Source of the DNA: Promethearchaeota archaeon
GTDB lineage: Archaea > Asgardarchaeota > Lokiarchaeia > Sigyniarchaeales > SOKP01
NCBI GenBank assembly: GCA_030606095.1
Contig: JAUWHC010000002.1
Span: 1 to 35,702 of the forward strand
DNA: 35,702 nt
Direction of reading: 5' to 3'
A program made the position numbers and the translations under genes. Each line of letters opens with the position of its first letter. Positions within the stretch are counted from its first letter, which is position 1. This document shows positions 20,286 to 35,476 of this stretch, one piece after another. The notes under the pieces were generated by a model. The model searched no databases. It was not told the origin of the DNA and saw only the letters and a program-made list of their open reading frames with translations.

Positions 20286-20357
20286 AAGTATTCCAAATCA
20301 AGAAAAAAAAGTTTGATTATTTTTAGATATCAGATTAAAAAAAGAGGTAATAGAAAA

Positions 20358-21491: not shown

Positions 21492-22460
21492 TTAACTCAA
21501 TTTTGATGTTAGGTGCATAAATAATTCATCAAGACCTTCTCCTGTAAGGGCTGATGTCTCAAAATAGGTTAAATTATATTGCTGGGCAATTTGATTTGCT
21601 TTATTTGAAATTTCCGTTCGATTTTCTATTAAATCCACTTTATTTCCAACTAAAATATATGGAATTTTTTCTGCATCAGTAAATTGATGTGCTTCTTCAA
21701 TCCATTCATAAATTTCATTCAATGTATCAATTTTTGAAAAATCAAACATAATTATAACTGCTTCAGCATTGTGATAAAAAGGTTTTCGAATTTTTGCAAA
21801 ACATTTCAGGCCTCCCATATCATATATATGGAAAATTAATTTCATTTGTTTAGTGATTTGGAACTCTTTTTCAACAAAAGAAACACCAAGTGTTGGTATA
21901 TACTCTGTTTTAAAATTTCCATTGAAAAACATCTCAACTAAAGAACTCTTACCTGCTTGGTCCAGTCCAACGATAATAATGTTATGTATTAGATTTTTTT
22001 CATTAACAGCATCAGAATTAATTGATTTGTGAAGGATCTGCCCATTATCCTTAAAAGAAGGAAGAGAAAGAGATATGGAAGTATCTTGATAGTTTAAAAC
22101 TTGAGAAACCTTTTCAGCAACGATATAAGAATAAGGGATATATTTTAATATTTCTTTATAATGATCAGTAACTATAGCAAATATCGCGGGAGATTTACAA
22201 CCTAATTCCATATAAAATAATCTAAACGCATTAGTATCAAAAGTTCCACTACCAAATGAAGTTTTAGCAAATCGTTTTATTTTATGAATTGTTTCATCGA
22301 GGATACTAACAATTGCTCCTATAATATCTTCATCGAAGTCGTAGACAGATTGTTGAGCAATAATTAACCCATCATAATCTACAATTAAGACTGATAATAA
22401 ATCAGGAGTTTCAGATAAAAAATTTGTTAATAATTCGTCTAATACTGATACTTTTAGCAT
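21492..22460 (-). CDS. Roadblock/LC7 domain fused to a Ras/Rab-like small GTPase
   Basis: aa 1-125 are Roadblock-like (DLLSVLIVDYDGLIIAQQS, IIGAIVSILDETIHKIKRF, AIFAIVTDH). aa ~158-322 form the G domain: G1 GLDQAGKSS, switch I YIPTLG, G3 DMGGL, G4 NKVD, G5 ETSAL. Confidence 0.85.
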   Translation of the reverse strand: MLKVSVLDELLTNFLSETPDLLSVLIVDYDGLIIAQQSVYDFDEDIIGAIVSILDETIHKIKRFAKTSFGSGTFDTNAFRLFYMELGCKSPAIFAIVTDHYKEILKYIPYSYIVAEKVSQVLNYQDTSISLSLPSFKDNGQILHKSINSDAVNEKNLIHNIIIVGLDQAGKSSLVEMFFNGNFKTEYIPTLGVSFVEKEFQITKQMKLIFHIYDMGGLKCFAKIRKPFYHNAEAVIIMFDFSKIDTLNEIYEWIEEAHQFTDAEKIPYILVGNKVDLIENRTEISNKANQIAQQYNLTYFETSALTGEGLDELFMHLTSKLS

Positions 22461-22556: not shown

Positions 22557-23621
22557 TCAATTTTTAGTTGCATTAATCTTCATATAAATATGGTTTTTTG
22601 GATCAATTAATTTTAAGTTCGAATTAGATTGAAAAAGCGTCTCAGTTTTCCCTAAAAATAATAGACCGCCTTCCTCTAAGTGATCTTCAATAATTTTTAA
22701 AAAAATTCTTCGATTTTCCCTATTAAAATAAATTAACAAGTATCTACAAAATATTATATCATATTTCAAAGAATACTTATGACCTCTAGTAACATCCTCA
22801 CAAATAAATTCAATCTGCTCTTTAATTTTTTCATTTAAGATATATTTATAGCTTGAAGCTTCTTTTTGTTTTGTGATATACTTCACTTTATATAATTGCG
22901 GTATATTTTCCATTGAATTAGCATAAATTCCTTTCTTTGCTTTTTGAAGAGCATTAAAATCAATATCTGAAGCAATAATTTTATAATTAGGAAATTTTAT
23001 AAACTGATTTCTAAGGTCATCTAATATCATAGCTATAGAGTATGGTTCTTCTCCGGAAGCACAAGGGCATGACCATATATATATTGGCTTTTTAGAAGAT
23101 CGTATTTTGTAATAAAGGGACGACTGAATAATAGAAAATGCGTTGAGGAAATTCTTTGTCGCTAAAATTGACTTAAGAAACAAAGTAGCCTCTTCATGAT
23201 TTTTAATCAATAAGTTAGTGAATTTTCTTAATATTAGTTTATCATTTAAAATCTCTTTATTTTTTAATGGATCAATTAAAGCATCCTCTATTTCATTTTC
23301 TATAATTTTGCTTTTACAATCTAAACATTCAACAAAGAGATCTTCAAATTTTTTGAAAACTTCTTTATTTCTAAAAAAGTAAGAGTAATTGATATTAAAT
23401 TGGTCCTTAAATTTTTCACCCTCATGATCCAAATGTGCTAAAAGATAAGTATAATATGAATTATAAGAATCACAATTTACATGAAGCATTCTAGCTCTGA
23501 TTCTTTTTTCTATGAAAGCTTTTCGATACATCCCAAAATTTATTCCTGTTTCCTTTCCTATTGAAGTAATCAAGCTATCATAAAAATCATCTTCAATTTG
23601 GATATCAGTAAGACCAATCAT
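22557..23621 (-). CDS. cheR: Chemotaxis methyltransferase CheR with an insertion of about 75 aa
   Basis: 354 aa. N-terminal helical domain ending in FFRNKEVF. SAM-binding IYIWSCPCASGEEPYSIAMIL, IIASDIDFNALQKAKKGIY, and YDIIFCRYLLIYFNRENRRIF...GGLLFLG. Extra segment at aa ~98-172 between FFRN and the SAM motif. Confidence 0.9.
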   Translation of the reverse strand: MIGLTDIQIEDDFYDSLITSIGKETGINFGMYRKAFIEKRIRARMLHVNCDSYNSYYTYLLAHLDHEGEKFKDQFNINYSYFFRNKEVFKKFEDLFVECLDCKSKIIENEIEDALIDPLKNKEILNDKLILRKFTNLLIKNHEEATLFLKSILATKNFLNAFSIIQSSLYYKIRSSKKPIYIWSCPCASGEEPYSIAMILDDLRNQFIKFPNYKIIASDIDFNALQKAKKGIYANSMENIPQLYKVKYITKQKEASSYKYILNEKIKEQIEFICEDVTRGHKYSLKYDIIFCRYLLIYFNRENRRIFLKIIEDHLEEGGLLFLGKTETLFQSNSNLKLIDPKNHIYMKINATKN

Positions 23622-23651: not shown

Positions 23652-24170
23652 TCAATCCAATATGATCGATTGAATTCTCAATAGTCTCTTTCCAATATGG
23701 TCCATTGTATATTTTATATGCATTTGCATCTCACTTATTTCAGATAATATGCTATTAATTTGACTTTTTTGTGAGCCTGATAATTTACTTTCAATTCTTA
23801 TTTTTTCATTAGAAGATATTTTCTTACTTTTAATTGAGAGTTTTCTTGATTCTCCCGGGTAATTTAAATCTGTTCTCCCCTCATTTATTTCATGAAATAG
23901 AATAATAAATTCATCAGGTTCATATCCTTGTTTTACTATTTCGTATTTGTAATTATAGAAATTCTTTTTAGCTTTTAGTTTAATTGCCCATGTTGATGCC
24001 ATATATCTTTGAAAGAGCTTTGAATTATTCCCCGCCCAAATCCAAATTGTGTTTAAATCCTTATCGACTAACAGGTAAACAGCCCTTTCTTTAAAATAAT
24101 TACCAGGATTTTGTTTTATTACATCTCCTTTAACTTGATAAATATTTTTTTTATAATTATCATTTAACAT
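23652..24170 (-). CDS. Single gelsolin-domain protein with helical C-terminal tail
   Basis: aa ~10-95 align by eye with the gelsolin G1 pattern: IYQVKG...YFKERAVYLLVDKDLNTIWIWAGNNSKLFQRYMASTWAIKLKA...YEIVKQGYEPDEFIILF versus LFQVKG...[40 protein letters not shown]...VHVSEEGTEPEAMLQVL. aa ~100-172 are S/K-rich and then helical. Confidence 0.75.
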   Translation of the reverse strand: MLNDNYKKNIYQVKGDVIKQNPGNYFKERAVYLLVDKDLNTIWIWAGNNSKLFQRYMASTWAIKLKAKKNFYNYKYEIVKQGYEPDEFIILFHEINEGRTDLNYPGESRKLSIKSKKISSNEKIRIESKLSGSQKSQINSILSEISEMQMHIKYTMDHIGKRLLRIQSIILD

Positions 24171-24254
24171 TTCTCTTAAGATGCCATTATTTTGGATTTT
24201 GAATTTTTTTTTTGATTAAAATTAATTTTATAAAATAGAAAATAATTAATTGAT

Positions 24255-26228
24255 TTATTCATAAAATAGTGCTAATTTATCTAATAAATCTTGTAGACTT
24301 TTTAAATCCGGAATATATAAAAATGTCCCTGTGATTTTTATATCAGAAACAATGACATTCGTTGTTATCACAAGCGAGAGTTTCTTAATTAATCCAATTT
24401 CATCTTGTAAAATTTTAAATAATTGTGTACCAGTATCTATACTCAAATCTGGTGGTTCTGTCATCATTTTCATGTCCAATAAATCCCCGATGGCACTAGC
24501 ATAATGACTTGCTAAAATGTGTCCAAGCTCGCTTATAGCGCTTTCAAAGAGATCACTAAAATCACTAACTGATTTAATATCCTTAGAGTTATAGTTATAA
24601 TCCCCATCAGTAATAATTGAACCTATTTTTATAATATCAGTTAACTTAAAAATAGAAACGATTGTTGCTTTTGCTTTTCCAATAATATTACTCCAAGATA
24701 CAAAAAGTTTTATGTTTCTCTTACTTATATTTTTGGCAAATTTATCTAACTCTACCATTTCTACTACGGGGATATCAATATCTACTCGTTTTTTAATCAT
24801 CCTAGCTAGAGCATTGGCAGCATTACCCGCTCCAATATTACCTACTTCTTGTAGTGCGTCTCTTTGAATATCAGTGAGTTTTACATTTTTTAATACCTCA
24901 TCTTCTAATTGTCTTGTTGTTTTCGTTGATATGCTTTTTATTTGATCAGAAATTAATTTATTGTCGATATTAAGCTTTTTAAATATGTTTTCTATTGTTA
25001 TTAAATCAGGAATAAAGAAAAACATCCCATTTAATTTTAAATCAACAACATTTATTGATGTTTTAATTGATATGAGAAATTTAATATTTGCTTTTTGTTC
25101 TTTTAAAAGAAAATCTCCTATTGACGCTGTTCTACTAAAAGCAAAATCGGGAACATCTATTAGCATTTTAGTTCCTAATAAATCTGCTATTGCAGACACA
25201 TAGTGCCCAGCCATAATATTCCCCATTTCTTTTATTGTAGAAATTGTCATTTCGTTTAGATCACTCTTGCTTTTAATATTACTTATAGGAGTTTTAAGTT
25301 TATTTTCCGATAAATCTTCGACTAATTTCAACAATGGAACCAAATCAAAAACTTGAAGGATTGTAGATGTCGAAGTATTTTCTATAGTAGAGAAAATTCC
25401 GCAGACTTTTTGATTACTATTTCCAAGATATGTACCTAAATTATCAAAAGATATTATTCCTACATCTGTAAGACTTACATCAATCTTTTTCTTGATTAAT
25501 CGAGATAAGGCAGTAATTGCATTTCCAGACCCAATATTTCCTATTTCTTTTAAGGTATCATGTTGATTTTCAGAAAGTGTTATTATATCTTTTGATTTAG
25601 AAACAGTTTTGATGCTTTTAGGTTTCTTTTTCCTTGAAGTCGATACTTTAATAGGAGCAACTTTTTGAACACGGGGTTTACTTTTTGTTTTTATTAAATT
25701 ATGACTTTTAATTTTTGGAAGAGGTTTAAATTCTACTTCATGTACGCTATTGGTTTTACTAATATCAGTTAAAAGCAATGGTGAAATTAATGATTCTAAA
25801 TCTAATAAAATATAAGCCATTTCATTCATTACTCCAATAGATTTAATTAATTTAGAATTTATATTTGTCTCGATAATCGATTTTTTTTTCGTAAAGATTG
25901 AATATGGAATTTCGCTAATACCAATAATAGAATCTACTAATAAAGCAATTTTTAAATTATCCCTTTCTAAAAGCAAGATTCGAGAATTTTCATTAAGATC
26001 GTCATTTATTTCGTTCGAATATATCATTTGTCTCAAAGAGATGATGGAATATATTTCACCCCTTATATCGATTAATCCTACAATGGATTTGTCAGATAAT
26101 GGAACTGGAACGATTTTATCACCAGGAATAAAGATTTCCTTAACATCCTTCACATCTAACAAATATTTTTCGTTTAATATTTTAATAATAACTGCATTAA
26201 AATTACTATTTTGTTCTGTTTCAATCAT
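24255..26228 (-). CDS. CheW-like domain fused to two complete CheC phosphatase domains
   Basis: aa ~10-150 are CheW-like (YLLDVKDVKEIFIP..IVPVPLSDKSIVGLIDIRGEIYSIISL...ALLVDSIIGISEI). A basic linker follows (aa ~160-215). Four CheC half-site helices: HDTLKEIGNIGSGNAITALS, STIKEMGNIMAGHYVSAIADLL, DALQEVGNIGAGNAANALA and SAISELGHILASHYASAIGDLL. Confidence 0.85.
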   Translation of the reverse strand: MIETEQNSNFNAVIIKILNEKYLLDVKDVKEIFIPGDKIVPVPLSDKSIVGLIDIRGEIYSIISLRQMIYSNEINDDLNENSRILLLERDNLKIALLVDSIIGISEIPYSIFTKKKSIIETNINSKLIKSIGVMNEMAYILLDLESLISPLLLTDISKTNSVHEVEFKPLPKIKSHNLIKTKSKPRVQKVAPIKVSTSRKKKPKSIKTVSKSKDIITLSENQHDTLKEIGNIGSGNAITALSRLIKKKIDVSLTDVGIISFDNLGTYLGNSNQKVCGIFSTIENTSTSTILQVFDLVPLLKLVEDLSENKLKTPISNIKSKSDLNEMTISTIKEMGNIMAGHYVSAIADLLGTKMLIDVPDFAFSRTASIGDFLLKEQKANIKFLISIKTSINVVDLKLNGMFFFIPDLITIENIFKKLNIDNKLISDQIKSISTKTTRQLEDEVLKNVKLTDIQRDALQEVGNIGAGNAANALARMIKKRVDIDIPVVEMVELDKFAKNISKRNIKLFVSWSNIIGKAKATIVSIFKLTDIIKIGSIITDGDYNYNSKDIKSVSDFSDLFESAISELGHILASHYASAIGDLLDMKMMTEPPDLSIDTGTQLFKILQDEIGLIKKLSLVITTNVIVSDIKITGTFLYIPDLKSLQDLLDKLALFYE

Positions 26229-26266: not shown

Positions 26267-27130
26267 TTAATTCATTTTAACCATAATTCCTTTCCATATA
26301 AGCTCAACCTGCGGTTCTTCTTGAATAATTTCAGAAAAATAACCAATTTGTTTAAAAATCGAGATTTGGCCCCCGTTTGTCTTATCGTAGATATAATCAA
26401 GCATATCTTCCGTACTGCTAAAATTAAATCCCGCGAGTTCAAATCGTTCATGATCATCATCGTCAATCTTGATTATCAATAAGTCCTCGCCATCGAATTG
26501 TTTACTTAAATCAATCCATTCTAACCAAATATCAGGAATAATAGATTTATTTCCAATAGCAAAAGCATCCGATATGGGAATATTTCTATAACTTTTACAA
26601 GCGGCAATGATGACTTTATTCGGAATAATTTTATTCCTTTTTGCAAATTCAATAAAATTGCTTATAATTTCCATGTAATTATCTAATTCTAATATCTGGA
26701 GGCATGTAATAAAAATCAAATCCTTAGCTTCTGTTTCAACGATGAAATCTATCATATTATTTTTTTCATTAATTCGATTTACATAAACAGAGTTACTTTT
26801 AAAACCTCTTACATATTTTAAATATTGATACAATCTCCATTTTAAGGCTTTTTTTGTATTAATCTCTTTACTTATAAGAATTTGGTAAAGACTTTTTAAT
26901 TGATTTGTAGTAAACCTAGAAAAATCTGCTAAATCTTTGTTATTGGTATCTATTTTAATATATCCATTGGCCAAAGTTGATTTTTCATTCTTCCCAAGAG
27001 CTTCATTATTGATATCTTTTAATATAGTTTGTAATTCTTTTTTTGTAAAAGCTGGTTTAAGCTGTTCTAAAAAATATTGTAAATTATTTTTGGATTTATC
27101 CAATAATGTCTCATAATATTGAAAATTCAT
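26267..27130 (-). CDS. Hypothetical protein (possible PD-(D/E)xK-like core)
   Basis: 287-aa ORF in the che cluster. The central segment RGFKSNSVYVNRINEKNNMIDFIVETEAKDLIFITC...KVIIAACKSYRNIP weakly resembles a restriction-endonuclease-like fold. No confident family. Confidence 0.45.
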   Translation of the reverse strand: MNFQYYETLLDKSKNNLQYFLEQLKPAFTKKELQTILKDINNEALGKNEKSTLANGYIKIDTNNKDLADFSRFTTNQLKSLYQILISKEINTKKALKWRLYQYLKYVRGFKSNSVYVNRINEKNNMIDFIVETEAKDLIFITCLQILELDNYMEIISNFIEFAKRNKIIPNKVIIAACKSYRNIPISDAFAIGNKSIIPDIWLEWIDLSKQFDGEDLLIIKIDDDDHERFELAGFNFSSTEDMLDYIYDKTNGGQISIFKQIGYFSEIIQEEPQVELIWKGIMVKMN

Positions 27131-27192: not shown

Positions 27193-30100
27193 TTATCCAA
27201 AAACAAATGACTCCAGTTTGTCAAAGCTAATCTTCTCACCACTTATATTTTTAACATAATATCTAACTTCTTCTTCCTGGAAAGGCAAAATGTTATCAAT
27301 TTCAAATGTTATAAGATTTGAATCCACGCCATCTAACTCAGAAATTTGACTTTTAATATTTGATGATATGAATTTAAAAGATTGGGATATCGTATCCTTT
27401 ATTTTTACATTCTTGACTTCGATATTTGAATTATTGATTACCATAAGACTAATAGCAAATTCATCCAATTCCCTTCCCGGAAAGATTTCCTTACTAACTA
27501 ATAAATCTCGACGCTTATGCATTATTTTCAATTCTGGCAATTCGTTTTTATTTAGCTCATTTTCAATTATATACAACTTTCCTTGATCAAACTTTTCTTT
27601 TGGGTAATAAGACTTTACTATAAGTGGAAACACATAAGATTTTTTATGATCAGGAGCAATTGCATTGAAGAAATATCTAATCTCTAAATATTCATCAATA
27701 TCTATGATACAGTCAGAATTAGTTACATCTAAATTTACAGCGATCTCTAATATGTGCGGAACTGATGAGTCCTGATTATTAGGATATATGTTTATTTTTA
27801 AGTCCTCAAAATCTTTCCTTCCTGAGGATGTTCTTATACGAAAATCTGATTTCTCGATTGGTGGTATGAAATCAGCGGGGATTTCCTCTCTTATTAAAAG
27901 TCCTTTGACTGGAGTCGTGCCAATATTTTTTATGATAAGTAAATCCTCTAATTTTGTTTCTTCAAATGATTTTATCTCTGACTTAGATAATTTTTTAGAG
28001 ATTGATAAATTCACAATTTCAAAAATGTCTTCCTCAAAGTTAATATTAATTCGTGATATTTTTTCACTTTTTTCAATAACGGAATATTCTAGCTTTCTAT
28101 AAAATTTCGGTTCAAATTTATCATGTATTTGCCACTCTTTACTAATAAACCTATCCCCATGTTTAATAATTTTTTTTCCATTTTTATCATTAAATTTTAA
28201 ATCGATTAATTTATTTTTTTTATCTTTATCTAATATTAAAATTGATCTTAATTCCATGTCCATATCACTATTATTTTTAAAGATTAACGAACAATTCCAT
28301 AAGTTTGGTGCGTCTTCTTGTTCTTTTTTCTTTATAGCATGCAAAGCATGAGAATATGCTGTAAAGTTTTCAAACTCAATACCTGAAATCAAACAGTCTC
28401 TAAATTCAAATGATAATCGAATTTCACCTGTTCCGAAAATCTTTTTTTCTTTCGGTTTTATGTCAGTATGGATTATAATAGCTATTTCTTCATTAGGTTT
28501 GAGATCTTTTATAGAAAAAATTATTTGATTTTTATTTGTTTCAGTATTTGCTATAGCTTTGCTGTCAAATTTAAAGTTAGAAAAATCAGGAGGAAAATTT
28601 TTAATTAATTTTGTGTTTCTCATTACGAAGTTTGAACGATTTTTTAGCACGATTGTGAATTTTATTAAATTTAATTTATTAAATAAAATTAAAGAATTGG
28701 TATCCAATGTTGATTTAATGGGTTCATTATTTAGGTCATTGTCATCAGAGTCAAAACTCATTAACATCTCTTTTTTTCTTAAAGATTCTTCTTTTAGATC
28801 CTTGGATTTTCCATCTAATTGAGTATCACGCTCATTTTCCAAATCCTTTATTTTATCATCTAGCAGTTCCTTTTTTTTTACTAATTCATTAATTTCAGCA
28901 ATAATATCATTTAAGGATCTTTGTTCTGTTTCTAATCTAGCCTCAATATTTTTTATTTTTGGATTATATTCTTCGATAATTTCTTTTAATTTGATTATTT
29001 TCTTTTCTTTTTCACTAATTTTATTTCTTAACGATTTTATATTATTTTTTTTAATTTTAGTATTTTCGTTCACTTTTGTATTTAAAAGCGTATCTTTTGT
29101 TTTAGTGGTCGTACTAATCTGTTTTTTCAAATTCTTTAAATTTTCTTTAGATTTTTTATTTCTATCGGTAAGTTTCTTTATTTTTTGATTAATTACATCT
29201 AATTTAGATTGATTATCTTTTAATTCAATTTCCGTATCATTAATTTTGGGATGATATTTTTCCTTAACTTCTTTTTTTTTCGAATCTTCATTCAATATAT
29301 TTTTTAAAGCTTTTGATTCTTCTTTTATAAGGATATTGTGTGCTTTTTTTAAGTTTTTAACAATAGTAATTTGATTTTTCTTTTTAACAATCTGTTCTTC
29401 AAGTTCCTTACTACTTTGATTAAAATCTTCTTGCTCTACATCTAGTTTTAAAGTAAATTCTTCTATTTTTGGGTTTAAATCTTCACTAACTTCTTCTTTG
29501 ATAGTTTTTTCTTTCTTTAAATATTCATCTTCAACAACCAAAACTTCTTTTTCTGTTAGCTTAATTTGTTCACTAAGCTTTTTAATTTTAGATTCTAAAC
29601 CCAAGATTTCTTGAGAATTAAATTCGGTAATCTTTTTTTTATCTTTAAGCCCTTGAGCTTTAAGTATTGAATTGATTAATGTTTTAAAGTCATTTTCTAA
29701 ATTACTTCTAACTTTTTCTAATTCTGTCTTTTTTGCTCTTAGCTCATCTAGTTTTTTATTAATATCGTCCATATTTGCATAATCTGCTTTTAATTTTTCT
29801 TCACTTGTTTCTTTTTCAGGAGATAATTCATTTTCTTCTGTAATTATATCATCTTTAGATTCTACATCATCATCTTTTATTGGTTTGTATAATTCAGATT
29901 TGAGTTCATGAATAGATTTAGCATTTATATTCATCACTTCTATATTTTCATTAAGGTCGATAAGATCTAGTAAATCTTCTGAATTTGAAATAGTATAGCT
30001 TATGTTTTTTGAATTTTTAGGATCAAAATTACCAAAATTAATTAGCTCATCTTTATCAAGATTTATTTTTTCACAGTCTGAGAGTTTTAGATTAACATCC

Positions 30101-30369
30101 CAAACTCGATCTTTCTTAGAATTATTTAATATCGTAATATTGCCCATTCCAGTAAAACTTTCTAATATCTTCCTATTATTATATTTAAAATCTAAAGTTT
30201 CTTCGTTTCTTATAAGAATATTTGAATCGTATTCGATATTACTGAACTTCACTTCCTTATCTAATGTTGTTAAGGTTTCTTCTTTTTCAATGTGTTTCAA
30301 AGGTATTCCAATGAAAACAGGGGACATTATTGTCTCTAATTCTTTAATATCTATTTGTTTAAAACCCAT
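27193..30369 (-). CDS. Large cytoplasmic protein: beta-sandwich module, ~350-aa coiled coil, four further CARDB/DUF11-like beta-sandwich modules
   Basis: 1058 aa with no signal peptide or TM helix. aa ~185-535 are K/E/N-rich heptad-like sequence with three copies of E-x-[LY]-[NH]-P-K-I-x3-E-x2-L-x2-[EN]-Q (aa 296, 370, 466). The flanking modules carry the strand pattern x-[IV]-x-[LV]-x-N-x-[SG]-x3-[VM]-x-[ND]-[VT]-x-[LI] (ITILNNSKKDRVWDVNLKL; FTIVLKNRSNFVMRNTKLI; LLIIKNIGTTPVKGLLIRE; ISLMVINNSNIEVKNVKIKD). Confidence 0.6.
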   Translation of the reverse strand: MGFKQIDIKELETIMSPVFIGIPLKHIEKEETLTTLDKEVKFSNIEYDSNILIRNEETLDFKYNNRKILESFTGMGNITILNNSKKDRVWDVNLKLSDCEKINLDKDELINFGNFDPKNSKNISYTISNSEDLLDLIDLNENIEVMNINAKSIHELKSELYKPIKDDDVESKDDIITEENELSPEKETSEEKLKADYANMDDINKKLDELRAKKTELEKVRSNLENDFKTLINSILKAQGLKDKKKITEFNSQEILGLESKIKKLSEQIKLTEKEVLVVEDEYLKKEKTIKEEVSEDLNPKIEEFTLKLDVEQEDFNQSSKELEEQIVKKKNQITIVKNLKKAHNILIKEESKALKNILNEDSKKKEVKEKYHPKINDTEIELKDNQSKLDVINQKIKKLTDRNKKSKENLKNLKKQISTTTKTKDTLLNTKVNENTKIKKNNIKSLRNKISEKEKKIIKLKEIIEEYNPKIKNIEARLETEQRSLNDIIAEINELVKKKELLDDKIKDLENERDTQLDGKSKDLKEESLRKKEMLMSFDSDDNDLNNEPIKSTLDTNSLILFNKLNLIKFTIVLKNRSNFVMRNTKLIKNFPPDFSNFKFDSKAIANTETNKNQIIFSIKDLKPNEEIAIIIHTDIKPKEKKIFGTGEIRLSFEFRDCLISGIEFENFTAYSHALHAIKKKEQEDAPNLWNCSLIFKNNSDMDMELRSILILDKDKKNKLIDLKFNDKNGKKIIKHGDRFISKEWQIHDKFEPKFYRKLEYSVIEKSEKISRININFEEDIFEIVNLSISKKLSKSEIKSFEETKLEDLLIIKNIGTTPVKGLLIREEIPADFIPPIEKSDFRIRTSSGRKDFEDLKINIYPNNQDSSVPHILEIAVNLDVTNSDCIIDIDEYLEIRYFFNAIAPDHKKSYVFPLIVKSYYPKEKFDQGKLYIIENELNKNELPELKIMHKRRDLLVSKEIFPGRELDEFAISLMVINNSNIEVKNVKIKDTISQSFKFISSNIKSQISELDGVDSNLITFEIDNILPFQEEEVRYYVKNISGEKISFDKLESFVFG

Positions 30370-30416: not shown

Positions 30417-32519
30417 TTATATTGTTGTTTCCAGGTCTATTTCTTGAAGCGTCGGTAGTTCGTCGTTTTTAGAAGAAATTATATTCAAAACATCAAGAAT
30501 TAAACAAATTGATCCATCTCCTGTAATTGAAGTACCTAAAATTTCTTGAAATCGTGAGAATCTTGTTCTAAAGGGCTTCATAACGATTTCCATTTGTTGA
30601 AGAATTTCGTCTACAACAAATAAAGCTGAATTCTCTTCATCTTTTTCGCATAAAATTGCAATTTTCGCAGATGAATTCGCCTTGGTTTGATCTTTATTTT
30701 TAATTAAAAACTCTAAGTATTTATTTAGCCATATTATGGGTATTAATTTTGAATTTAATCTATAATATTCCACTCCTTTAATATATTCTATTAAGCCCCG
30801 ATCAAAAAAATAAATTTGTTTAATATTTTCAATTGGAATTGCAAATAAATCACCACCAACTTTCATTAATTGTGCTTTTAGTATAGCCCTTGTGAATGGA
30901 ACTACAAGCGTAAATGTTGTACCTATATCTTTTTCTGAATAAATACTTAACGATCCACCTAACTCTTCTATTTTTTTTGCTACTATGGCCAATCCCATTC
31001 CCCTCCCAGAGATCAAATTCGCCCCTTCAAGAGTCGAAAAGCCTGATGAAAAAATTATTTCATTTAATTGTTCTGTAGTTAATGCCGAGGCTTCTTCTTG
31101 AGAATAGAGTTCTTTTTCTACAGCTTTTTGTCTAACCCTTTCATAATCAATACCACTCCCGTTATCTTCTATTTCAATGTATATTGAACCTGCACTTCTA
31201 AATGTTCTGAGGTTTATTACCCCAAATTGATTTTTATTTTTAGCTTTCCTCTCACTAGGTGTTTCAATTCCATGATAAATGGAATTTCGCAAAATATGCA
31301 TTAGGGGGCTATTTAATTCTTCAAGAACTTTTCGATCAATTTCCACATCCATTCCTTCTAATGTAAGTCTAACCATTTTTCCATTACTTTTAGCTACATC
31401 TCTTACAAGTCTTCGGTATTTCCTAAAAGTTGAATCGACTCGGACCAATTTTAATTTAAAAATAATTTCTTGAATCTCAAGAAAAAGTTTATCCATATTA
31501 TCAAAAAATAGATTAACACCCCTTTCTTGTCTATCTTCTAAAACTTGGTTTATCTGATTTTTTATTATTACAAGTTCTCCGAAATAATTCATTAATTGTT
31601 CTATAACATCAATATCTATTTTTACCGAATTTATTTTACTTGTACCATAAGCTAAATCAGCCCCTAATGATGGCAATTCTCCTTGATCTTCCTCTACAAA
31701 TAGTTGTTCATTAGTTTTATAATCTTCTGTTGAAGACTGTGCAAATTTTTCCTTTTGAGCTAATTTTAGATTAAATTCTAAATTAAATTTAATTAAATCT
31801 TCAGCACTTATTTTTGTTATAACTATATTTTCTATCTCTAAGATTTCATCTATAGCGTTCTGTATTTTATCAGAATTTAATTCAGATAAAAAATAAACAG
31901 TAAAACTATTTTTAAAGTCCCCCATTTCTAACTTATCTGGTTCAGGGATACTAGCGCAAATTCTACCAATTTCATTTAATGCTCTAAATATTATAAATAA
32001 TCTTACTTTTTTAAAAACACAAGTAGACTGAATCTGAATAAATATTTTATAGAATTTATTTTTCTGATTCTTTTTAGAATTTTCTAATTCTTCTTTAGAA
32101 ATGGGTTTAAAGAGCGTAATACCATATTCGGAATCGAGTGCTTCAAAAGAATAATTTAATCTTTCTAACTCTTGTTCATTTAAATCTTTAACTTCCCCTT
32201 TTTTTATTTTTTCGATTGTATTTCGGATTACATCAAGACTTTTGAATAAGGAATCTATAATTTTGCCTTTATTTTTTATCTGTTCTTTAAGATTTTTATT
32301 TTTTTCAAGAAAAGTCTCAAATTGATGGATAAATTTTGATAAATTTTCAAGACTTACCATAGCCGTCAAACCTTTCAAAGTATGATAAACATAGAAAAGT
32401 TCTTGAATTGGTTTGTTGTTTTTTGGATTTTCTTCTAATATTAATAAATTATCTTCAATTTTTTGAATTAGATCTTCTGCTTCGCTATAAAATAGCTTCA
32501 TATCCTTATCTGAAATCAC
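30417..32519 (-). CDS. cheA: Chemotaxis histidine kinase CheA (P1 Hpt, P3, P4 HATPase, P5 CheW-like)
   Basis: 700 aa with a GTG start. Hpt His46 in YVYHTLKGLTAM (nt 32382-32384). N-box HILRNSIYHGIE, G1 DNGSGID, G2 SGRGMGLAIV. C-terminal CheW-like domain (GGDLFAIPIENIKQI...FVVDEILQQMEIVMKP). Confidence 0.95.
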   Translation of the reverse strand: MISDKDMKLFYSEAEDLIQKIEDNLLILEENPKNNKPIQELFYVYHTLKGLTAMVSLENLSKFIHQFETFLEKNKNLKEQIKNKGKIIDSLFKSLDVIRNTIEKIKKGEVKDLNEQELERLNYSFEALDSEYGITLFKPISKEELENSKKNQKNKFYKIFIQIQSTCVFKKVRLFIIFRALNEIGRICASIPEPDKLEMGDFKNSFTVYFLSELNSDKIQNAIDEILEIENIVITKISAEDLIKFNLEFNLKLAQKEKFAQSSTEDYKTNEQLFVEEDQGELPSLGADLAYGTSKINSVKIDIDVIEQLMNYFGELVIIKNQINQVLEDRQERGVNLFFDNMDKLFLEIQEIIFKLKLVRVDSTFRKYRRLVRDVAKSNGKMVRLTLEGMDVEIDRKVLEELNSPLMHILRNSIYHGIETPSERKAKNKNQFGVINLRTFRSAGSIYIEIEDNGSGIDYERVRQKAVEKELYSQEEASALTTEQLNEIIFSSGFSTLEGANLISGRGMGLAIVAKKIEELGGSLSIYSEKDIGTTFTLVVPFTRAILKAQLMKVGGDLFAIPIENIKQIYFFDRGLIEYIKGVEYYRLNSKLIPIIWLNKYLEFLIKNKDQTKANSSAKIAILCEKDEENSALFVVDEILQQMEIVMKPFRTRFSRFQEILGTSITGDGSICLILDVLNIISSKNDELPTLQEIDLETTI

Positions 32520-32543
32520 ACTTAACTCATTCTCCTCTATTTT

Positions 32544-32927
32544 TTATTTTTTTTTTAAAAGAATTCTTTGCAAAACATCAATAACTTGTTCATTTTTAAA
32601 TGGTTTTTGAATAAAATCTTTAGCCCCTTTTTTTGCAGCTTCAAGAACTAATGCTTCTTGGCCTAAAGCTGAAACAACCACAATTAACGCAGATCTATCA
32701 AATCTTATTATTTCTTCAATAGTCTCAATACCCCCCTTTTCTGGCATAACAAGATCCATAGTTACTAAATCTGGTTTTAATTGTTTATATAAAGCAATAG
32801 CTTCATTTCCATTTGCAGCTTCTCCAATTACTTCAGTAAAATCTGTTTTGTCTATAATCTTCTTTAACATATTCCTCGTAAAGCGGGCATCGTCCGTTAT
32901 CAGAATTCTTTTTTTACTGTTACTCAT
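32544..32927 (-). CDS. cheY: Chemotaxis response regulator CheY
   Basis: 127-aa single REC domain with ILITDDA, the phospho-acceptor in LVTMDLVMPEKGG, VVVSALG and FIQKPF. Lies immediately upstream of cheA. Confidence 0.9.
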   Translation of the reverse strand: MSNSKKRILITDDARFTRNMLKKIIDKTDFTEVIGEAANGNEAIALYKQLKPDLVTMDLVMPEKGGIETIEEIIRFDRSALIVVVSALGQEALVLEAAKKGAKDFIQKPFKNEQVIDVLQRILLKKK

Positions 32928-32967
32928 CTAATCACTCTCTTTTTAAATATTATTATTTTCTTTATTT

Positions 32968-33501
32968 TTACATAATAGATAAAAGTTCTTTTTTTATTGT
33001 TGAATGTTCAGCTTCATTAAGAACTTTACTAAGATCAATTAAAATTCTTGGTTTATCTTTTAATTTTATAATTCCTTTAACATATTCAATTCCAACGCTA
33101 GTTTGGAAAATTGGGCTTAATTCAACTAGGCTTTTTCTATTGATATTAATTACATTAATAATTCGGTCAACAAGAAAGCCAATAAATGTATCAATAATGT
33201 TTAATATTATGATAAAATTTGTTGTTGAGCCTAAACTGTCCTGATCTGCTTCATCATTTGATGAGATTTTCTTAGATTTATGCAAAAAAGTATTATTTAG
33301 GTTTAATTTCTTTTTTAAATTAACAATATGAATGATCTCTCCTCTATAGTTATAGATACCTTCAACAAAATCAAAACTTTTTGGTAATCTCCTTATTTGA
33401 TTCGCTTGAACAATTTCTTTAACTTCAAGAAGGTTGATTGCAAATTGTTCCTTATTTACTTCAAATATAATAATTGATATTTGTTCTGTTATTTCTTCCA
33501 T
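32968..33501 (-). CDS. cheW: Chemotaxis coupling protein CheW
   Basis: 177 aa. FAINLLEVKEIVQ...IRRLPKSFDFVEGIYNYRGEIIHIVNLKKKL...IGFLVDRIINVINI. Carries an acidic/Ser-rich insertion of about 15-20 aa (SSNDEADQDSLGSTT). Confidence 0.85.
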   Translation of the reverse strand: MEEITEQISIIIFEVNKEQFAINLLEVKEIVQANQIRRLPKSFDFVEGIYNYRGEIIHIVNLKKKLNLNNTFLHKSKKISSNDEADQDSLGSTTNFIIILNIIDTFIGFLVDRIINVININRKSLVELSPIFQTSVGIEYVKGIIKLKDKPRILIDLSKVLNEAEHSTIKKELLSIM

Positions 33502-33523
33502 TCTTTTTCTACCTCATTTTTTA

Positions 33524-34342
33524 TTATATTACAAAATATTCATCAATTAAATCTTCAAAATTATTGAATCGTGTAACATTACCATCAAATTGCGATACAT
33601 AATCTGAATATTCTGATAAAAATTCATCAACTATTAGATACATGTATCTTTGAATCAATGGCTTCATTTTTTTTACTAAATATGCAAAAATTACATCATT
33701 TTTAACAATCATATAAAAATGTTGATTTCCAAAATTAATTTCTTTTAATATTGCTCCTGATTCTTCGTTAATAATCTCTTTTGAAAATGAAAATAATGCT
33801 GAAATAAATCCACTAATTTGAACTTCGCTCTTTGAAATGAAAGTTTTATTTTTATTAATTTTCGTAATGTAAGGGCTTCCTGTTGCTCCAATAATTAATA
33901 GTGCTAAGACTCCATCTGCTCGTGGCACTTGTATAATCTCATTACAAAAATGTTTTATTTCTAAAAATGATAAATTTGATTGCCATCTTTCATTAATTTT
34001 TTTTGAAATAATATACAATTTTCCGTAACTCGTTGGGTTTTCTTTTTCATCCATGTAAATTATTAGTAATATGTTTCCTTGCTTATTTTCAAAAAAGTGA
34101 ATGATTACAGTATAATCATCTAAGGGAACAATAGAATTTCCTTTTTTTTTTTCTATGAATTCGTTTTTATATAATTCGAGTAAATTTTGAATAAACGGAT
34201 TTCCCATTCCTTTTTGGAAAATTATATCTGTTTTTCCTCCTAAATTGGTTTTAGTAAATTCTACTAATCCAAAACCAAATATCTGTAAATGATTTGAATT
34301 GTTATTTATTCTATGGGAATATTTCATAATTATCATTTGCAT
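33524..34342 (-). CDS. Hypothetical protein with two longin/roadblock-like alpha-beta-alpha halves
   Basis: 272 aa. Second half: GVLALLIIGATGSPYITKINKN...VQISGFISALFSFSKEII..GAILKEINFGNQHFYMIVKNDVIFAYLVKK...LIVDEFLSEY. First half: IFGFGLVEF...GNSIVPLDDYTVIIHFFENKQGNILLIIYMDEKENP...LYIISKKINERW. Both fit the longin/roadblock strand-helix-strand pattern by eye. Confidence 0.45.
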   Translation of the reverse strand: MQMIIMKYSHRINNNSNHLQIFGFGLVEFTKTNLGGKTDIIFQKGMGNPFIQNLLELYKNEFIEKKKGNSIVPLDDYTVIIHFFENKQGNILLIIYMDEKENPTSYGKLYIISKKINERWQSNLSFLEIKHFCNEIIQVPRADGVLALLIIGATGSPYITKINKNKTFISKSEVQISGFISALFSFSKEIINEESGAILKEINFGNQHFYMIVKNDVIFAYLVKKMKPLIQRYMYLIVDEFLSEYSDYVSQFDGNVTRFNNFEDLIDEYFVI

Positions 34343-34444
34343 TATGCCTATTATTTTTAATTTATTTTTTTATTATCCATACTTATTTGTTAATTATGAA
34401 AAAAAAGTGGGATTTCAACCACAATATAATTTTTTTTAATTTTA

Positions 34445-35476
34445 TTAGCTGACAGCTTCTAATGCTTCTTTGGGTTTCTTCAATATTACTTCCTTTTTTA
34501 CAGCTTTTGGCGATTCTTCAGGCTTTCTAACCCTTTTCGGAACTATTTTTTCTACTTTTTTAGGTTTTTTGATTGCTCTTGGCCCTTTATCAGCCTTTTC
34601 TTCTTCACCTTTATGTATATCCAGTATATCTTTGAGTTCTTCTGCGATAGTGACTAATTTATTTGCTGTTTCGTCAATTTCATCCATAGCCGTTTTTTGA
34701 TTATCTGAAGCGCCCATTATTTGTTCTAAAGCTACTTCATTTTCTTCTTCGTGGTGTTCAACTCCCTCAACTTCTTTGTTAATATTATCGATTTCTTCGA
34801 CTACTTTTTTTATTAATGTTTCTATTTCCTCTATTTTTTCGCTTGAGGAAAGAACAGCACTTTTAGACTCTTCAGCGAGTTTTCTAACCTCATCGGCTAC
34901 AACAGCAAAACCTCTACCGTGTTCACCCGCTCTTCCCGCTTCTATGCTCGCATTAAGGGCAAGTAAGTTTGTTTGTTCAGAAATGCTGGTGATAATTTCC
35001 AATACTTTATCAATATCAGTAGTGTGATCTAAAACTTCATGTATGTGTTGATCGGAAAGTCCCACATGGTTTACAATTGCTTTAAGAGCATCAACTTGAC
35101 CTATCGTTGCTTCTACAAGACCATGAGTTTTCTCTGAGATATCTGTAGCGTGAGCGTCTACTTCGTCTGCACCTGCTGCTAGTTCTTGGCCTATATTAGC
35201 TACATTAATAGCAACCTCTTCAGCATGATCAATAACATCTTCCATTTGATGTTCTTTAAGGTCTATTTCTCTAATTGCATGAGTCGCTTTTCTAACGACA
35301 GAATAGTTGAGACCGATTCCTAATATCAGCGATACGATTAAACTAACAATTAATAATGAAGTTTTAATTTCTCTAGTACCGTAAATCTCCATAGGAAGGA
35401 TGCCTATAAGCCCTACCATGAACATCAGCAATAATATTACTCCAATGTTTATAATTATTTGATTTCCTATTTTCAT
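34445..35476 (-). CDS. Minimal methyl-accepting chemotaxis protein (2 TM helices, no ligand-binding domain)
   Basis: 343 aa. TM1 aa ~6-27, a loop of about 10 aa, TM2 aa ~39-60. Highly conserved signalling tip [39 protein letters not shown]-terminal K/P/E-rich tail of about 50 aa. Confidence 0.9.

What the first reader, a model, noticed from the sequence alone, without database searches (positions are those of the whole stretch)
23652..24170. Single-domain gelsolin homolog encoded between cheC and cheR
The first ~95 aa match the gelsolin-repeat pattern closely: YQVKG, the WxG-NS core, and the G-x-EP-xxF end. A 70-aa S/K-rich then helical tail follows (SQINSILSEISEMQMHIKYTMDHIGKRLLRIQSIILD). 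The gaps to the upstream CheW-CheC gene (84 nt) and the downstream cheR (30 nt) argue for co-transcription. Gelsolin-fold proteins in Asgard archaea are known actin regulators. I would not expect one inside a chemotaxis operon. The extra tail could be a docking element for a Che component.
Basis: partly seen in the sequence, partly recalled or inferred. Interest (0 to 1): 0.75.

Follow-up and report, generated by a model that had tools for sequence, protein, structure and literature searches.

The report
Gelsolin gene fixed in Asgard chemotaxis cluster
A small actin-regulator-type (gelsolin-fold) protein with a coiled-coil tail is a near-constant member of the chemotaxis gene cluster of Loki-type Asgard archaea, which suggests, without proving it, that a bacterial-style chemosensory pathway is wired to the eukaryote-like actin cytoskeleton.

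Summary
Window 23652-24170 (-) encodes a 172-aa protein. Residues ~8-97 form a gelsolin/cofilin-fold domain. A family profile matches only gelsolin-family PDB chains, best E=2e-16. The AF2 model's best Foldseek match is Thorarchaeota ProGel (TM 0.82, rmsd 2.0 Å). The canonical Ca2+ ligand positions are not acidic, as in ProGel.

After the domain come an invariant PG-SR motif, a variable S/K-rich linker and a five-heptad amphipathic helix with no known homologue.

The linkage is not a chance insertion. In 41 of 41 loci with upstream flank, including 38 GTDB species genomes, the gene directly follows the CheW-CheC-CheC fusion. In the reverse test it follows that fusion in 45 of 47 metagenome loci. 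It is as conserved as CheB or CheR.

Co-transcription with the upstream gene is doubtful, because that gap carries a conserved oligo-T run. Coupling to cheR is tight, with a median gap of 11 nt.

My best reading, which is inferred, is an actin-binding adaptor or output component of an Asgard che system. That system also carries a Roadblock-Ras GTPase and three unknown conserved proteins. Actin binding and Che docking are untested, and I found no paper describing this linkage.

The parts
23652..24170 (-). Gene for the che-linked gelsolin ('CheGel'), 172 aa
   Evidence: The ORF is listed. Orthologues. Gelsolin identity.
23880..24149 (-). Gelsolin/cofilin-fold domain (aa ~8-97): four strands, a long helix, a fifth strand and a short helix
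   Evidence: The AF2 secondary structure has pLDDT 87-94 over aa 11-90. The best Foldseek match is ProGel 7c2f_B. D36, W45 and G47 are invariant.
23970..24017 (-). Long helix (aa 52-67, LFQRYMASTWAIKLKA), the element that contacts actin in gelsolin G1 and ProGel
   Evidence: It is the most conserved segment of the protein, with mean top-residue frequency 0.90. L52, F53, R55, Y56, A58, A62 and K64 are invariant in 40 sequences. It aligns to ProGel ELFKKLMGTRVAAKL.
23844..23870 (-). Post-domain motif D-L-x-Y-P-G-E/Q-S-R (aa 101-109)
   Evidence: P105, G106, S108 and R109 are invariant in 40 sequences. No known counterpart was found.
23778..23843 (-). Variable S/K-rich linker (aa 110-131)
   Evidence: Top-residue frequency is 0.28 and the length varies between orthologues. 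pLDDT is below 50.
23658..23777 (-). [quoted passage not shown]
   Evidence: Predicted helix 132-171. Hydrophobic positions 138, 141/142, 145, 148, 152, 156, 159, 163, 166 and 169/170 are 100% hydrophobic across 40 sequences, and the periodicity peaks at 3.5 residues. E144 and E147 are invariant.
24171..24254 (-). 84-nt gap between the CheW-CheC-CheC gene and the gelsolin gene. It holds the ATCCAAA motif at 24191-24197 and T-rich/TATA-like sequence.
   Evidence: This is the longest gap in the cluster. It carries a conserved oligo-T run (32 of 39 loci) and an enriched ATCCAAA motif (14 of 39 gaps, ~1.1 occurrences expected). In the window itself the T-runs are only T4.
24255..26228 (-). CheW-CheC-CheC fusion protein (657 aa), the invariant upstream neighbour
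   Evidence: Pfam CheW 5e-19 and CheC 7e-40. NCBIfam CheC 2e-59. It is the upstream neighbour in 41 of 41 loci.
22557..23621 (-). cheR methyltransferase, the downstream neighbour
   Evidence: Pfam CheR 6e-43 and CheR_N 7e-11. It is the downstream neighbour in 19 loci, with a median gap of 11 nt.
21492..22460 (-). Roadblock/LC7 + Ras-family small GTPase fusion (322 aa), a cluster member
   Evidence: Pfam Ras 5e-36 and Robl_LC7 2.6e-4. It lies within 6.5 kb downstream of the gelsolin gene in 25 of 32 loci. G1-G5 motifs are intact, and Leu replaces the catalytic Gln in 20 of 26.
26267..27130 (-). Conserved unknown protein (287 aa) of the cluster
   Evidence: It is present in every cluster examined. 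No Pfam, NCBIfam or PDB match.
27193..30369 (-). Cytoplasmic protein (1058 aa) with a long coiled coil and a C-terminal DUF11-type repeat, a cluster member
   Evidence: Pfam DUF11 5e-7. SMC-like coiled-coil hits over aa 250-550. No TM segment. Conserved position.
30417..35476 (-). Core signalling genes: cheA (30417-32519), cheY (32544-32927), cheW (32968-33501), conserved unknown 272-aa protein (33524-34342) and an MCP (34445-35476)
   Evidence: Pfam assignments. The order is conserved across loci.
8146..9684 (-). cheB (REC + methylesterase), displaced from the cluster in this genome
   Evidence: Pfam CheB_methylest 4e-55 and Response_reg 3e-20. In most other genomes cheB follows cheR directly.

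Best explanation
The gene encodes a dedicated, chemotaxis-cluster-specific member of the Asgard gelsolins ('CheGel').

Shown:
- The N-terminal ~90 residues adopt the gelsolin/cofilin fold, closest to the calcium-free single-domain ProGel.
- The gene is a fixed, purifying-selected member of an Asgard-type che cluster. The usual order is unk272, CheW, CheY, CheA, a coiled-coil/DUF11 protein, unk287, CheW-CheC-CheC, CheGel, CheR, CheB, CheD, CheC, Roadblock-Ras, CheB.

Inferred:
- The domain binds Lokiactin through its long helix, the canonical actin-contacting element and the most conserved part of the protein. Binding would be calcium-independent.
- The invariant five-heptad C-terminal helix forms a coiled coil. 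It either dimerises the protein, giving a bivalent actin binder, or docks it onto a partner encoded in the cluster. Candidates are CheW-CheC-CheC, the coiled-coil protein, CheR and CheY~P.
- CheGel thereby links the chemoreceptor/CheA/CheY machinery to actin filaments. It could position arrays on the cytoskeleton. More interestingly, it could act as an output arm that locally alters actin dynamics, together with the Roadblock-Ras GTPase, to bias protrusion growth or actin-based crawling.
For: Fold:
- PDB sequence hits are restricted to gelsolin-family proteins.
- The AF2 model is confident over the domain.
- The top Foldseek match is the ProGel/actin complex chain 7c2f_B, TM 0.82.
- D36, W45 and G47 are invariant.
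- Asgard ProGel, 1DGelX and 2DGel bind and regulate actin in vitro (PMC7444086).

Interface:
- The long helix has the highest conservation, 0.90.
- It resembles ProGel's helix.

Linkage:
- 41 of 41 loci have CheW-CheC-CheC immediately upstream.
- 45 of 47 long CheW-CheC-CheC genes in metagenomes are followed by the gelsolin gene.
- The gap to cheR has a median of 11 nt.
- Conservation equals that of CheB and CheR.
- The closest paralogues are not che-linked. They sit in a different sensory operon (Roadblock, unknown, Gel, FIST), so the che copy is a specialised lineage.

Tail: the heptad pattern is invariant.

Biological context:
- L. ossiferum shows chemoreceptor arrays and che genes (PMC9834061).
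- Asgard cells crawl using actin (bioRxiv 10.1101/2025.11.30.690169).
- No archaellum or cheF gene lies within ~10 kb of the cluster in the loci I annotated.
Against: - No direct evidence that this protein binds actin. ProGel itself binds rabbit actin very weakly (Kd ~337 uM). [quoted passage not shown]
- No evidence of contact with any Che protein. The tail has no homology to known CheY-, CheA- or MCP-binding motifs.
- At least one lokiarchaeon with che genes (L. ossiferum) is reported to encode an archaellum machinery. The che output could therefore be conventional, with CheGel only an accessory.
- I could not show that any cultured strain carries this orthologue.
- Two metagenome loci have the cluster without the gene (L074, L107).
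- Conserved oligo-T signals upstream suggest it is not simply co-transcribed with the core genes.
Confidence: 0.5

Rival explanations
1. The gelsolin fold has been repurposed. The domain no longer binds actin and serves as a protein-protein module inside the chemosensory complex, for example as an array scaffold or as a CheR or CheC partner. This would parallel the gelsolin-like domain of Sec23/24, which works in a non-actin context.
For: - The linkage to che genes is near-obligate, and coupling to cheR is tight.
- The helix residues are family-specific and invariant (F53, H54, R55, Y56, W61) and differ from other gelsolins.
- The Pfam score is sub-threshold, which shows divergence.
Against: - The closest structural and sequence relatives are actin-bound Asgard gelsolins.
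- The conserved surface is the canonical actin-binding helix, and it resembles ProGel's.
- The non-che paralogue family shares the RY.A...A.K.K helix core, which suggests a common, non-Che partner.
Confidence: 0.22
2. CheGel is a regulator or effector of the cluster's Roadblock-Ras small GTPase. It could act as a GAP-type or effector partner, by analogy with the Sec23 gelsolin-like domain that contacts Sar1. The pair would form a polarity switch downstream of the che system, as Frz does with MglA/MglB in Myxococcus.
For: - The GTPase lies in the same cluster in 25 of 32 loci and is the immediate neighbour in 7.
- It lacks the catalytic Gln (Leu in 20 of 26), so it probably needs a partner for hydrolysis.
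- The paralogous Gel family is encoded beside a Roadblock-domain protein.
- R55 and R109 are invariant.
- The Sec23-Sar1 contact is from my own knowledge and was not tested here.
Against: - In 7 of 32 loci no GTPase lies within 6.5 kb downstream, yet the gelsolin gene is kept. In one genome it ends the cluster.
- The GTPase is instead tightly coupled to the short cheC (median gap 10 nt).
- There is no sequence similarity to any known GAP.
Confidence: 0.12
3. CheGel is an ordinary actin regulator that is merely co-located or co-regulated with che genes. It would be expressed when the cell is in a sensing or motile state, with no physical or signalling connection to the pathway.
For: - A conserved terminator- or promoter-like gap upstream suggests its own transcription unit.
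- L. ossiferum is reported to encode eight gelsolin-like proteins, so Asgard genomes can carry many.
- Lokiarchaeum ossiferum is reported to encode an archaellum machinery that could be the true che output.
Against: - The position directly after one particular che gene is kept across Loki-, Hermod- and Hod-labelled MAGs down to 37% identity. It is also kept in 45 of 47 reverse-direction loci. That is much tighter than co-regulation requires.
- The start of cheR is translationally coupled.
- The tail is family-specific and invariant.
Confidence: 0.13
4. Chance insertion, or a spurious ORF.
For: None beyond the AT-rich genome (~27% GC), which produces many long ORFs.
Against: Orthologues occur in 38 species genomes with conserved start, length, motifs and position.
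Confidence: 0.01

Closest known systems
Thorarchaeota ProGel (PDB 7C2F; Akil et al. 2020, PMC7444086)
   Same: Both are a single gelsolin/cofilin-fold domain. It is the best structural match (TM 0.82, rmsd 2.0 Å, 25% identity). Both carry the D/W/G signature. Both lack conserved acidic residues at the Ca2+ ligand positions. The long helices are similar: KLFQRYMASTWAIKL here and ELFKKLMGTRVAAKL in ProGel.
   Different: CheGel carries a 75-aa extension (PG-SR motif, linker, heptad helix) and sits in a che cluster. ProGel is the bare domain and binds actin only weakly. Actin binding by CheGel is untested.
Asgard 1DGelX / GelX (Thor_1DGelX KXH72031.1; B35_GelX of L. ossiferum)
   Same: [quoted passage not shown] 1DGelX severs actin independently of calcium.
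   Different: 1DGelX migrates near actin on gels, so it is much larger than the 172-aa CheGel. Longer gelsolin proteins found with the CheGel profile match only the gelsolin domain, not the tail. No che linkage is reported for GelX. I did not have the 1DGelX sequence, so tail homology was not compared directly.
FIST-linked small Gel + helical-tail paralogues (P0044, P0048, P0168 and others)
   Same: They have the same size (165-215 aa) and the same architecture of a gelsolin domain plus a helical tail, at 20-25% identity. They occur in the same genomes. They are also embedded in a conserved sensory-type operon.
   Different: The neighbours differ: a Roadblock protein, a ~320-aa unknown and a FIST-domain protein, followed by LuxE and LuxC, with no che genes. 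The helix and tail sequences also differ.
CheF (archaeal adaptor between CheY~P and the archaellum switch)
   Same: A possible functional analogy: a non-canonical, archaea-specific protein that would connect the che pathway to its cellular target.
   Different: There is no sequence or fold similarity. CheF targets ArlCDE, whereas CheGel would target actin. A CheY interaction was not tested.
Myxococcus Frz chemosensory system with MglA (Ras-like GTPase) and MglB (Roadblock)
   Same: In both, a che-type pathway is associated with a Ras-family GTPase and a Roadblock domain (here fused in one protein). In Myxococcus this arrangement controls polarity rather than a rotary motor (PMC3441718, listed).
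   Different: Here the GTPase and a gelsolin are encoded inside the che cluster itself, and actin is the presumed target. Nothing has been shown experimentally.
Eukaryotic gelsolin, villin and CapG
   Same: They share a homologous domain (profile E down to 2e-16).
   Different: The eukaryotic proteins have three to six domains and are regulated by Ca2+. CheGel has one domain and lacks the Ca2+ ligands.

Membership tests
Gelsolin repeat superfamily (Pfam PF00626) | Sequence match to the family model above the curated threshold | tested here: inconclusive
   The window protein scores 17.7 bits, E=0.0033, below the gathering score of 21. Of 22 relatives, 6 hit PF00626, best 8e-6. A family profile hits only gelsolin-family PDB chains, best 2e-16.
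Gelsolin repeat superfamily (Pfam PF00626) | Fold: a central beta-sheet packed against one long and one short helix | tested here: met
   The AF2 elements are E10-14, E17-20, E31-36, E41-46, H52-67, E75-80 and H86-97, with pLDDT ~87-94. All 45 Foldseek hits with E<=1e-3 are gelsolin domains.
Gelsolin repeat superfamily (Pfam PF00626) | Conserved D/W/G signature, as opposed to the WP of cofilin | tested here: met
   D36, W45 and G47 are invariant in 40 orthologues and across the wider 74-sequence alignment. The signature is described in PMC7444086.
Calcium-regulated gelsolins (2DGel, eukaryotic gelsolin) | Acidic type-2 Ca2+ ligands: an Asp before strand 3 and a Glu at the start of the long helix | tested here: not met
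   The aligned positions are 30 (G/E/S/A, variable) and 54 (His in 38 of 40). The ligand identities come from textbook knowledge of gelsolin G1.
Actin-binding Asgard gelsolins (ProGel, 1DGelX, 2DGel) | Binds or regulates actin | not testable with these tools
   The evidence is only indirect: the canonical actin-contact helix is the most conserved segment and is ProGel-like.
1DGelX architecture | A single gelsolin domain plus a C-terminal coiled-coil 'domain X' homologous to that of Thor 1DGelX | tested here: inconclusive
   The architecture class is shared, with a heptad helix. However, the size differs and the tail profile matches nothing outside the family.
Chemotaxis (Che) pathway components | Conserved placement in che gene clusters across genomes | tested here: met
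   41 of 41 loci, and 45 of 47 in the reverse direction.
Chemotaxis (Che) pathway components | Homology to a known Che protein family | tested here: not met
   Pfam and NCBIfam give no Che family for this protein.
Chemotaxis (Che) pathway components | Physical or functional interaction with CheY, CheA, CheW, CheC or CheR | not testable with these tools

The most novel reading that the evidence does not exclude
The Loki-type Asgard che cluster is a hybrid chemotaxis pathway. A bacterial-style MCP-CheA-CheY front end signals through a dedicated gelsolin (CheGel) and a Roadblock-Ras GTPase to the Lokiactin cytoskeleton. This output would steer protrusion growth or actin-based crawling instead of, or in addition to, an archaellum. 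It would be a prokaryotic precedent for the receptor, small GTPase and actin-regulator logic of eukaryotic chemotaxis.
Probability: 0.25. Interest if true: 0.93.

Novelty: new variant of a known kind. Interest (0 to 1): 0.8.

Why it matters
[quoted passage not shown] A 2025 preprint reports that they crawl using actin, but nothing is known about how that motility could be guided. Separately, their che genes and chemoreceptor arrays have no assigned output.

This study finds a gelsolin-fold protein and a Ras-family GTPase embedded as near-invariant members of the che cluster. That gives a concrete, testable candidate for the missing link between chemosensing and the actin cytoskeleton.

If the link is real, it would be the first case of a two-component chemotaxis pathway controlling actin. 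It would also bear on how eukaryotic-style directed cell migration arose.

If the domain has instead been repurposed away from actin, it would still define a new Che accessory family. It would also be a second non-actin use of the gelsolin fold.

The experiments are simple, because the protein is small, soluble and calcium-independent.

Tried and rejected
- **Pfam alone:** the hit was sub-threshold. Profile and structure searches were needed to settle the fold.
- **First AF2 run:** with 10 sequences the model was poor (pLDDT 57) and I did not use it.
- **The three unknown cluster proteins:** I looked for known domains in unk272, unk287 and the 1058-aa protein. Pfam, NCBIfam, PDB phmmer and PDB profile searches gave nothing beyond a coiled coil and DUF11.
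- **Roadblock idea for unk272:** by eye it looked Roadblock- or longin-like. hhalign against the Roadblock domain of the GTPase gave no support (probability below 2%), so I dropped the idea.
- **Shared partners between the two Gel operons:** I tested whether the unknown genes of the FIST-linked paralogue operon are homologous to unk272 or unk287. They are not. The 143-aa gene is Roadblock/LC7.
- **Tail homology:** searching the tail alone against PDB and Pfam gave only insignificant coiled-coil noise. A FliM/CheZ-type CheY-binding motif (LSxxEIDxLL) is not present in register; this was judged by eye only.
- **Stand-alone tail proteins:** short 'tail-only' hits (P0037, P0053, P0098, P0125) are fragments of the same family, not a new architecture.
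- **Link to the L. ossiferum Lokiactin Co-IP:** I tried to connect the gene to the gelsolins recovered there (B35_Gel1/2). The supplements give only identifiers and no che locus tags, so no link could be made.
- **Source of the window:** the window is a whole 35.7-kb NCBI MAG contig, so it is not that closed genome.
- **Literature:** seven searches combining Asgard or Lokiarchaeota with gelsolin, CheW, chemotaxis, Roadblock and GTPase found no description of this linkage.
Full report
**1. What is there**

Window 23652-24170 (minus strand) is an ATG-initiated ORF of 172 aa. It lies 84 nt downstream of a 657-aa CheW-CheC-CheC fusion gene (24255-26228; Pfam CheW 5e-19, CheC 7e-40). It lies 30 nt upstream of cheR (22557-23621; CheR 6e-43).

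The whole right half of the window is one minus-strand chemotaxis cluster. In transcription order it reads:
- an MCP (34445-35476)
- an unknown 272-aa protein (33524-34342)
- CheW (32968-33501)
- CheY (32544-32927)
- CheA (30417-32519)
- a cytoplasmic 1058-aa protein with a coiled coil and a DUF11-type repeat (27193-30369)
- an unknown 287-aa protein (26267-27130)
- the CheW-CheC-CheC fusion
- the gene in question
- CheR
- a Roadblock + Ras-family GTPase fusion (21492-22460)

An A-type ATPase operon and cheB (8146-9684) lie further on. The DNA is ~27% GC. The closest relatives are Promethearchaeota (Lokiarchaeia-type) MAGs. The window is a complete 35.7-kb NCBI MAG contig.

**2. Is it a gelsolin?**

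Yes. Pfam PF00626 alone is sub-threshold (E=0.0033, 17.7 bits against 21). Every stronger test agrees.
- phmmer against PDB sequences returns villin (4e-7), Thorarchaeota 2DGel3 (8e-7), ProGel (2e-5) and Lokiarchaeota 2DGel (3e-4).
- A 22-sequence family profile matches 35 PDB sequences, all gelsolin, villin, CapG, adseverin or Asgard gelsolins, with a best E of 2e-16.
- An AF2 model built on a 74-sequence alignment has pLDDT ~87-94 over most of residues 11-90. Its elements follow the order strand, strand, strand, strand, long helix, strand, short helix.
- Foldseek against the PDB returns only gelsolin domains. Thor ProGel from its actin complex (7c2f_B) is on top (E=4.6e-7, target-normalised TM 0.82, rmsd 2.0 Å).

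The D/W/G signature that separates gelsolins from cofilins (PMC7444086) is invariant here as D36, W45 and G47.

The two side-chain ligands of the gelsolin type-2 Ca2+ site are not conserved. The aligned positions are 30 (G/E/S/A) and 54 (His in 38 of 40). The ligand identities are from textbook knowledge. The domain is therefore ProGel-like and probably calcium-independent.

**3. The extension**

After the domain come three elements.
- A motif D-L-x-Y-P-G-E/Q-S-R (aa 101-109), with P105, G106, S108 and R109 invariant in 40 orthologues.
- A variable S/K-rich linker of variable length (top-residue frequency 0.28; pLDDT below 50).
- A 40-residue helix (aa 132-171).

In the helix, the a/d-type positions (138, 141/142, 145, 148, 152, 156, 159, 163, 166, 169/170) are hydrophobic in 100% of sequences. 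Hydrophobic periodicity peaks at 3.5 residues. That is a five-heptad coiled-coil-type helix.

A profile of the extension alone matches nothing significant in PDB or Pfam. In an exhaustive profile search of 1.8 billion representatives, the tail region is matched essentially only by members of this family and weakly by a few of its closest paralogues.

**4. Is the che linkage real?**

Yes, and it is close to obligate.
- A scan of GTDB species representatives found 38 loci encoding full-length orthologues (37-58% identity). They come from MAGs labelled Promethearchaeota, Hermodarchaeota and Hodarchaeota.
- I annotated these loci, plus five loci fetched by exact-protein look-up, with the window's own proteins. 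In 41 of 41 loci with upstream flank, the upstream neighbour is the CheW-CheC-CheC fusion.
- The same array (unk272, CheW, CheY, CheA, coiled-coil/DUF11 protein, unk287, CheW-CheC-CheC) precedes it.
- Downstream the gene is followed by cheR in 19 loci (median gap 11 nt, sometimes overlapping), by the Roadblock-Ras gene in 7 and by cheB in 7.
- The commonest full order continues CheR, CheB, CheD, CheC, Roadblock-Ras, CheB.
- As a reverse test I scanned metagenome contigs with a CheW-CheC-CheC profile. The gelsolin gene follows the long fusion gene in 45 loci and is missing in 2 (L074, L107).
- Across species the protein is as conserved as core Che proteins. Median identity to the window protein is 48%, against CheB 48%, CheR 46%, CheW 52% and CheA 53%.

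The nearest paralogues are 165-215-aa proteins with a gelsolin domain and a helical tail, 20-25% identical, found in the same genomes. They are not che-linked. They sit in a different conserved operon: a Roadblock/LC7 protein, a ~320-aa unknown, the Gel paralogue, then a FIST-domain protein, followed by LuxE and LuxC. This holds in 6 of 6 loci examined. The che copy is therefore a distinct, specialised orthologous group.

**5. Transcription**

- The gap between the CheW-CheC-CheC gene and the gelsolin gene is the longest in the cluster (median 110 nt against 7-55 nt for the others).
- It carries a T-run of at least 7 in 32 of 39 distinct loci, usually ~25-32 nt after the stop codon. Only 22 of 199 other intra-cluster gaps do.
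- It also carries an ATCCAAA motif in 14 of 39 gaps, where ~1.1 occurrences are expected.
- Oligo-T is the archaeal intrinsic termination signal (established knowledge).

The gene therefore probably heads its own or an attenuated transcription unit. In one genome it is the last gene of the array and would be monocistronic. In the window itself the T-runs are short (T4), but the ATCCAAA motif is present at 24191-24197.

**6. What it most likely does**

Shown: the fold, the calcium-site loss, the conserved tail and the fixed cluster membership.

Inferred: the function. The most conserved segment of the protein is the long helix (aa 52-67; mean top-residue frequency 0.90). [quoted passage not shown] It resembles ProGel's helix. 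Related Asgard gelsolins bind, sever, cap or bundle actin in vitro.

I therefore commit to this reading: an actin-binding adaptor or output component of the Asgard che system. Its coiled-coil tail either dimerises it or docks it on a cluster-encoded partner (confidence 0.5).

The context makes this attractive.
- L. ossiferum has chemoreceptor arrays and che genes.
- A 2025 preprint shows actin-dependent crawling in two Asgard cultures and does not mention chemotaxis.
- No archaellum or cheF gene lies within ~10 kb of the cluster in the loci I annotated.
- A Ras-family GTPase fused to a Roadblock domain sits in the same cluster. Its G1-G5 motifs are intact and its catalytic Gln is replaced by Leu in 20 of 26. 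It is tightly coupled to the short cheC (median gap 10 nt). This recalls the Frz-MglA/MglB polarity circuit of Myxococcus.

Against this reading:
- Actin binding is untested, and ProGel itself binds actin weakly.
- L. ossiferum is reported to encode an archaellum machinery.
- I could not test co-occurrence with arl and cheF genes.

The rivals are a repurposed non-actin Che scaffold (0.22), a partner or regulator of the Roadblock-Ras GTPase (0.12), a merely co-located actin regulator (0.13) and chance (0.01).

**7. Comparison with what is known, and novelty**

The domain is a member of the gelsolin superfamily and is closest to ProGel. The architecture class, one gelsolin domain plus a coiled-coil extension, was defined as 1DGelX. 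However, 1DGelX is much larger, and the tail here has no detectable relatives outside its own family. I therefore do not file the protein as 1DGelX.

The sources that name the clustered proteins call them 'hypothetical protein'. Seven full-text searches found no paper that links a gelsolin or a Roadblock-Ras GTPase to Asgard che clusters. The searchable library is incomplete, so this is not proof of novelty.

I rate it a new variant of a known kind: a new, che-dedicated gelsolin subfamily. There is a 0.25 chance that it marks a categorically new output route from chemotaxis signalling to actin.

Interest is 0.8. The mechanism is still inference.

Noticed in passing
window 21492-22460 (-): This is a Roadblock/LC7 + Ras-family small GTPase fusion encoded inside the che cluster. 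The G1-G5 motifs are intact, but the catalytic Gln after DxxG is replaced by Leu (20 of 26 orthologues). In other genomes the gene follows a short cheC with a median gap of 10 nt. It is reminiscent of Frz-MglA/MglB.
   Followed up: partly
L044-L046, L127-L129 (for example L045:4498-7876): A paralogous small protein with a gelsolin domain and a helical tail sits in a second conserved operon. The order is a Roadblock/LC7 protein (~143 aa), an unknown (~320-358 aa), the Gel paralogue, then a FIST-domain protein (438 aa), followed by LuxE and LuxC. This holds in 6 of 6 loci, and the same MAGs also carry the che-linked copy.
   Followed up: partly
window 24171-24254 and the equivalent gaps in L001-L043: The gap before the gelsolin gene is the longest in the cluster. 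It carries a conserved oligo-T run (at least T7 in 32 of 39 loci) and an ATCCAAA motif (14 of 39 gaps, ~1.1 occurrences expected). This is probably a terminator plus an internal promoter or 5' UTR element.
   Followed up: partly
window 33524-34342 (-), 26267-27130 (-), 27193-30369 (-): Three further non-canonical proteins are fixed members of the cluster: a 272-aa unknown, a 287-aa unknown and a cytoplasmic coiled-coil + DUF11-repeat protein. All three lack TM segments. The first two have no Pfam, NCBIfam or PDB match. The coiled-coil protein varies from ~670 to ~1780 aa between genomes.
   Followed up: partly
window 24255-26228 (-): An unusual triple fusion of a CheW domain and two CheC-like domains (657 aa), with a ~70-aa K/S/P-rich linker. 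It is conserved at ~54% identity across species. It shows FliY-like similarity in NCBIfam.
   Followed up: partly
L001/L002:17300-18325, L020:10730-11815, L130:11218-12444: A Na+/Ca2+ exchanger gene (PF01699) lies next to the che/gelsolin cluster in several genomes. The che-linked gelsolin nevertheless lacks the Ca2+ ligands.
   Followed up: no
window 500-5185 (+), 5276-5956 (-), 7051-7794 (-): A 1561-aa cytoplasmic multi-PAS/GAF histidine kinase sits near cheB. Beside it are two small HisKA + receiver proteins that have no ATPase domain.
   Followed up: no
window 8146-9684 (-): CheB here is 512 aa, with ~200 residues between the receiver (13-116) and the methylesterase (328-506). It is separated from the rest of the che cluster by an A-type ATPase operon. 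Most related genomes have two cheB genes inside the cluster.
   Followed up: no
window 20313-21164 (+) and 18720-20285 (+): An LCIB-type beta-carbonic anhydrase homologue (PF18599, 5e-34) lies here. Next to it is a 521-aa unknown protein that recurs near the che cluster in other genomes (L001, L020, L031).
   Followed up: no
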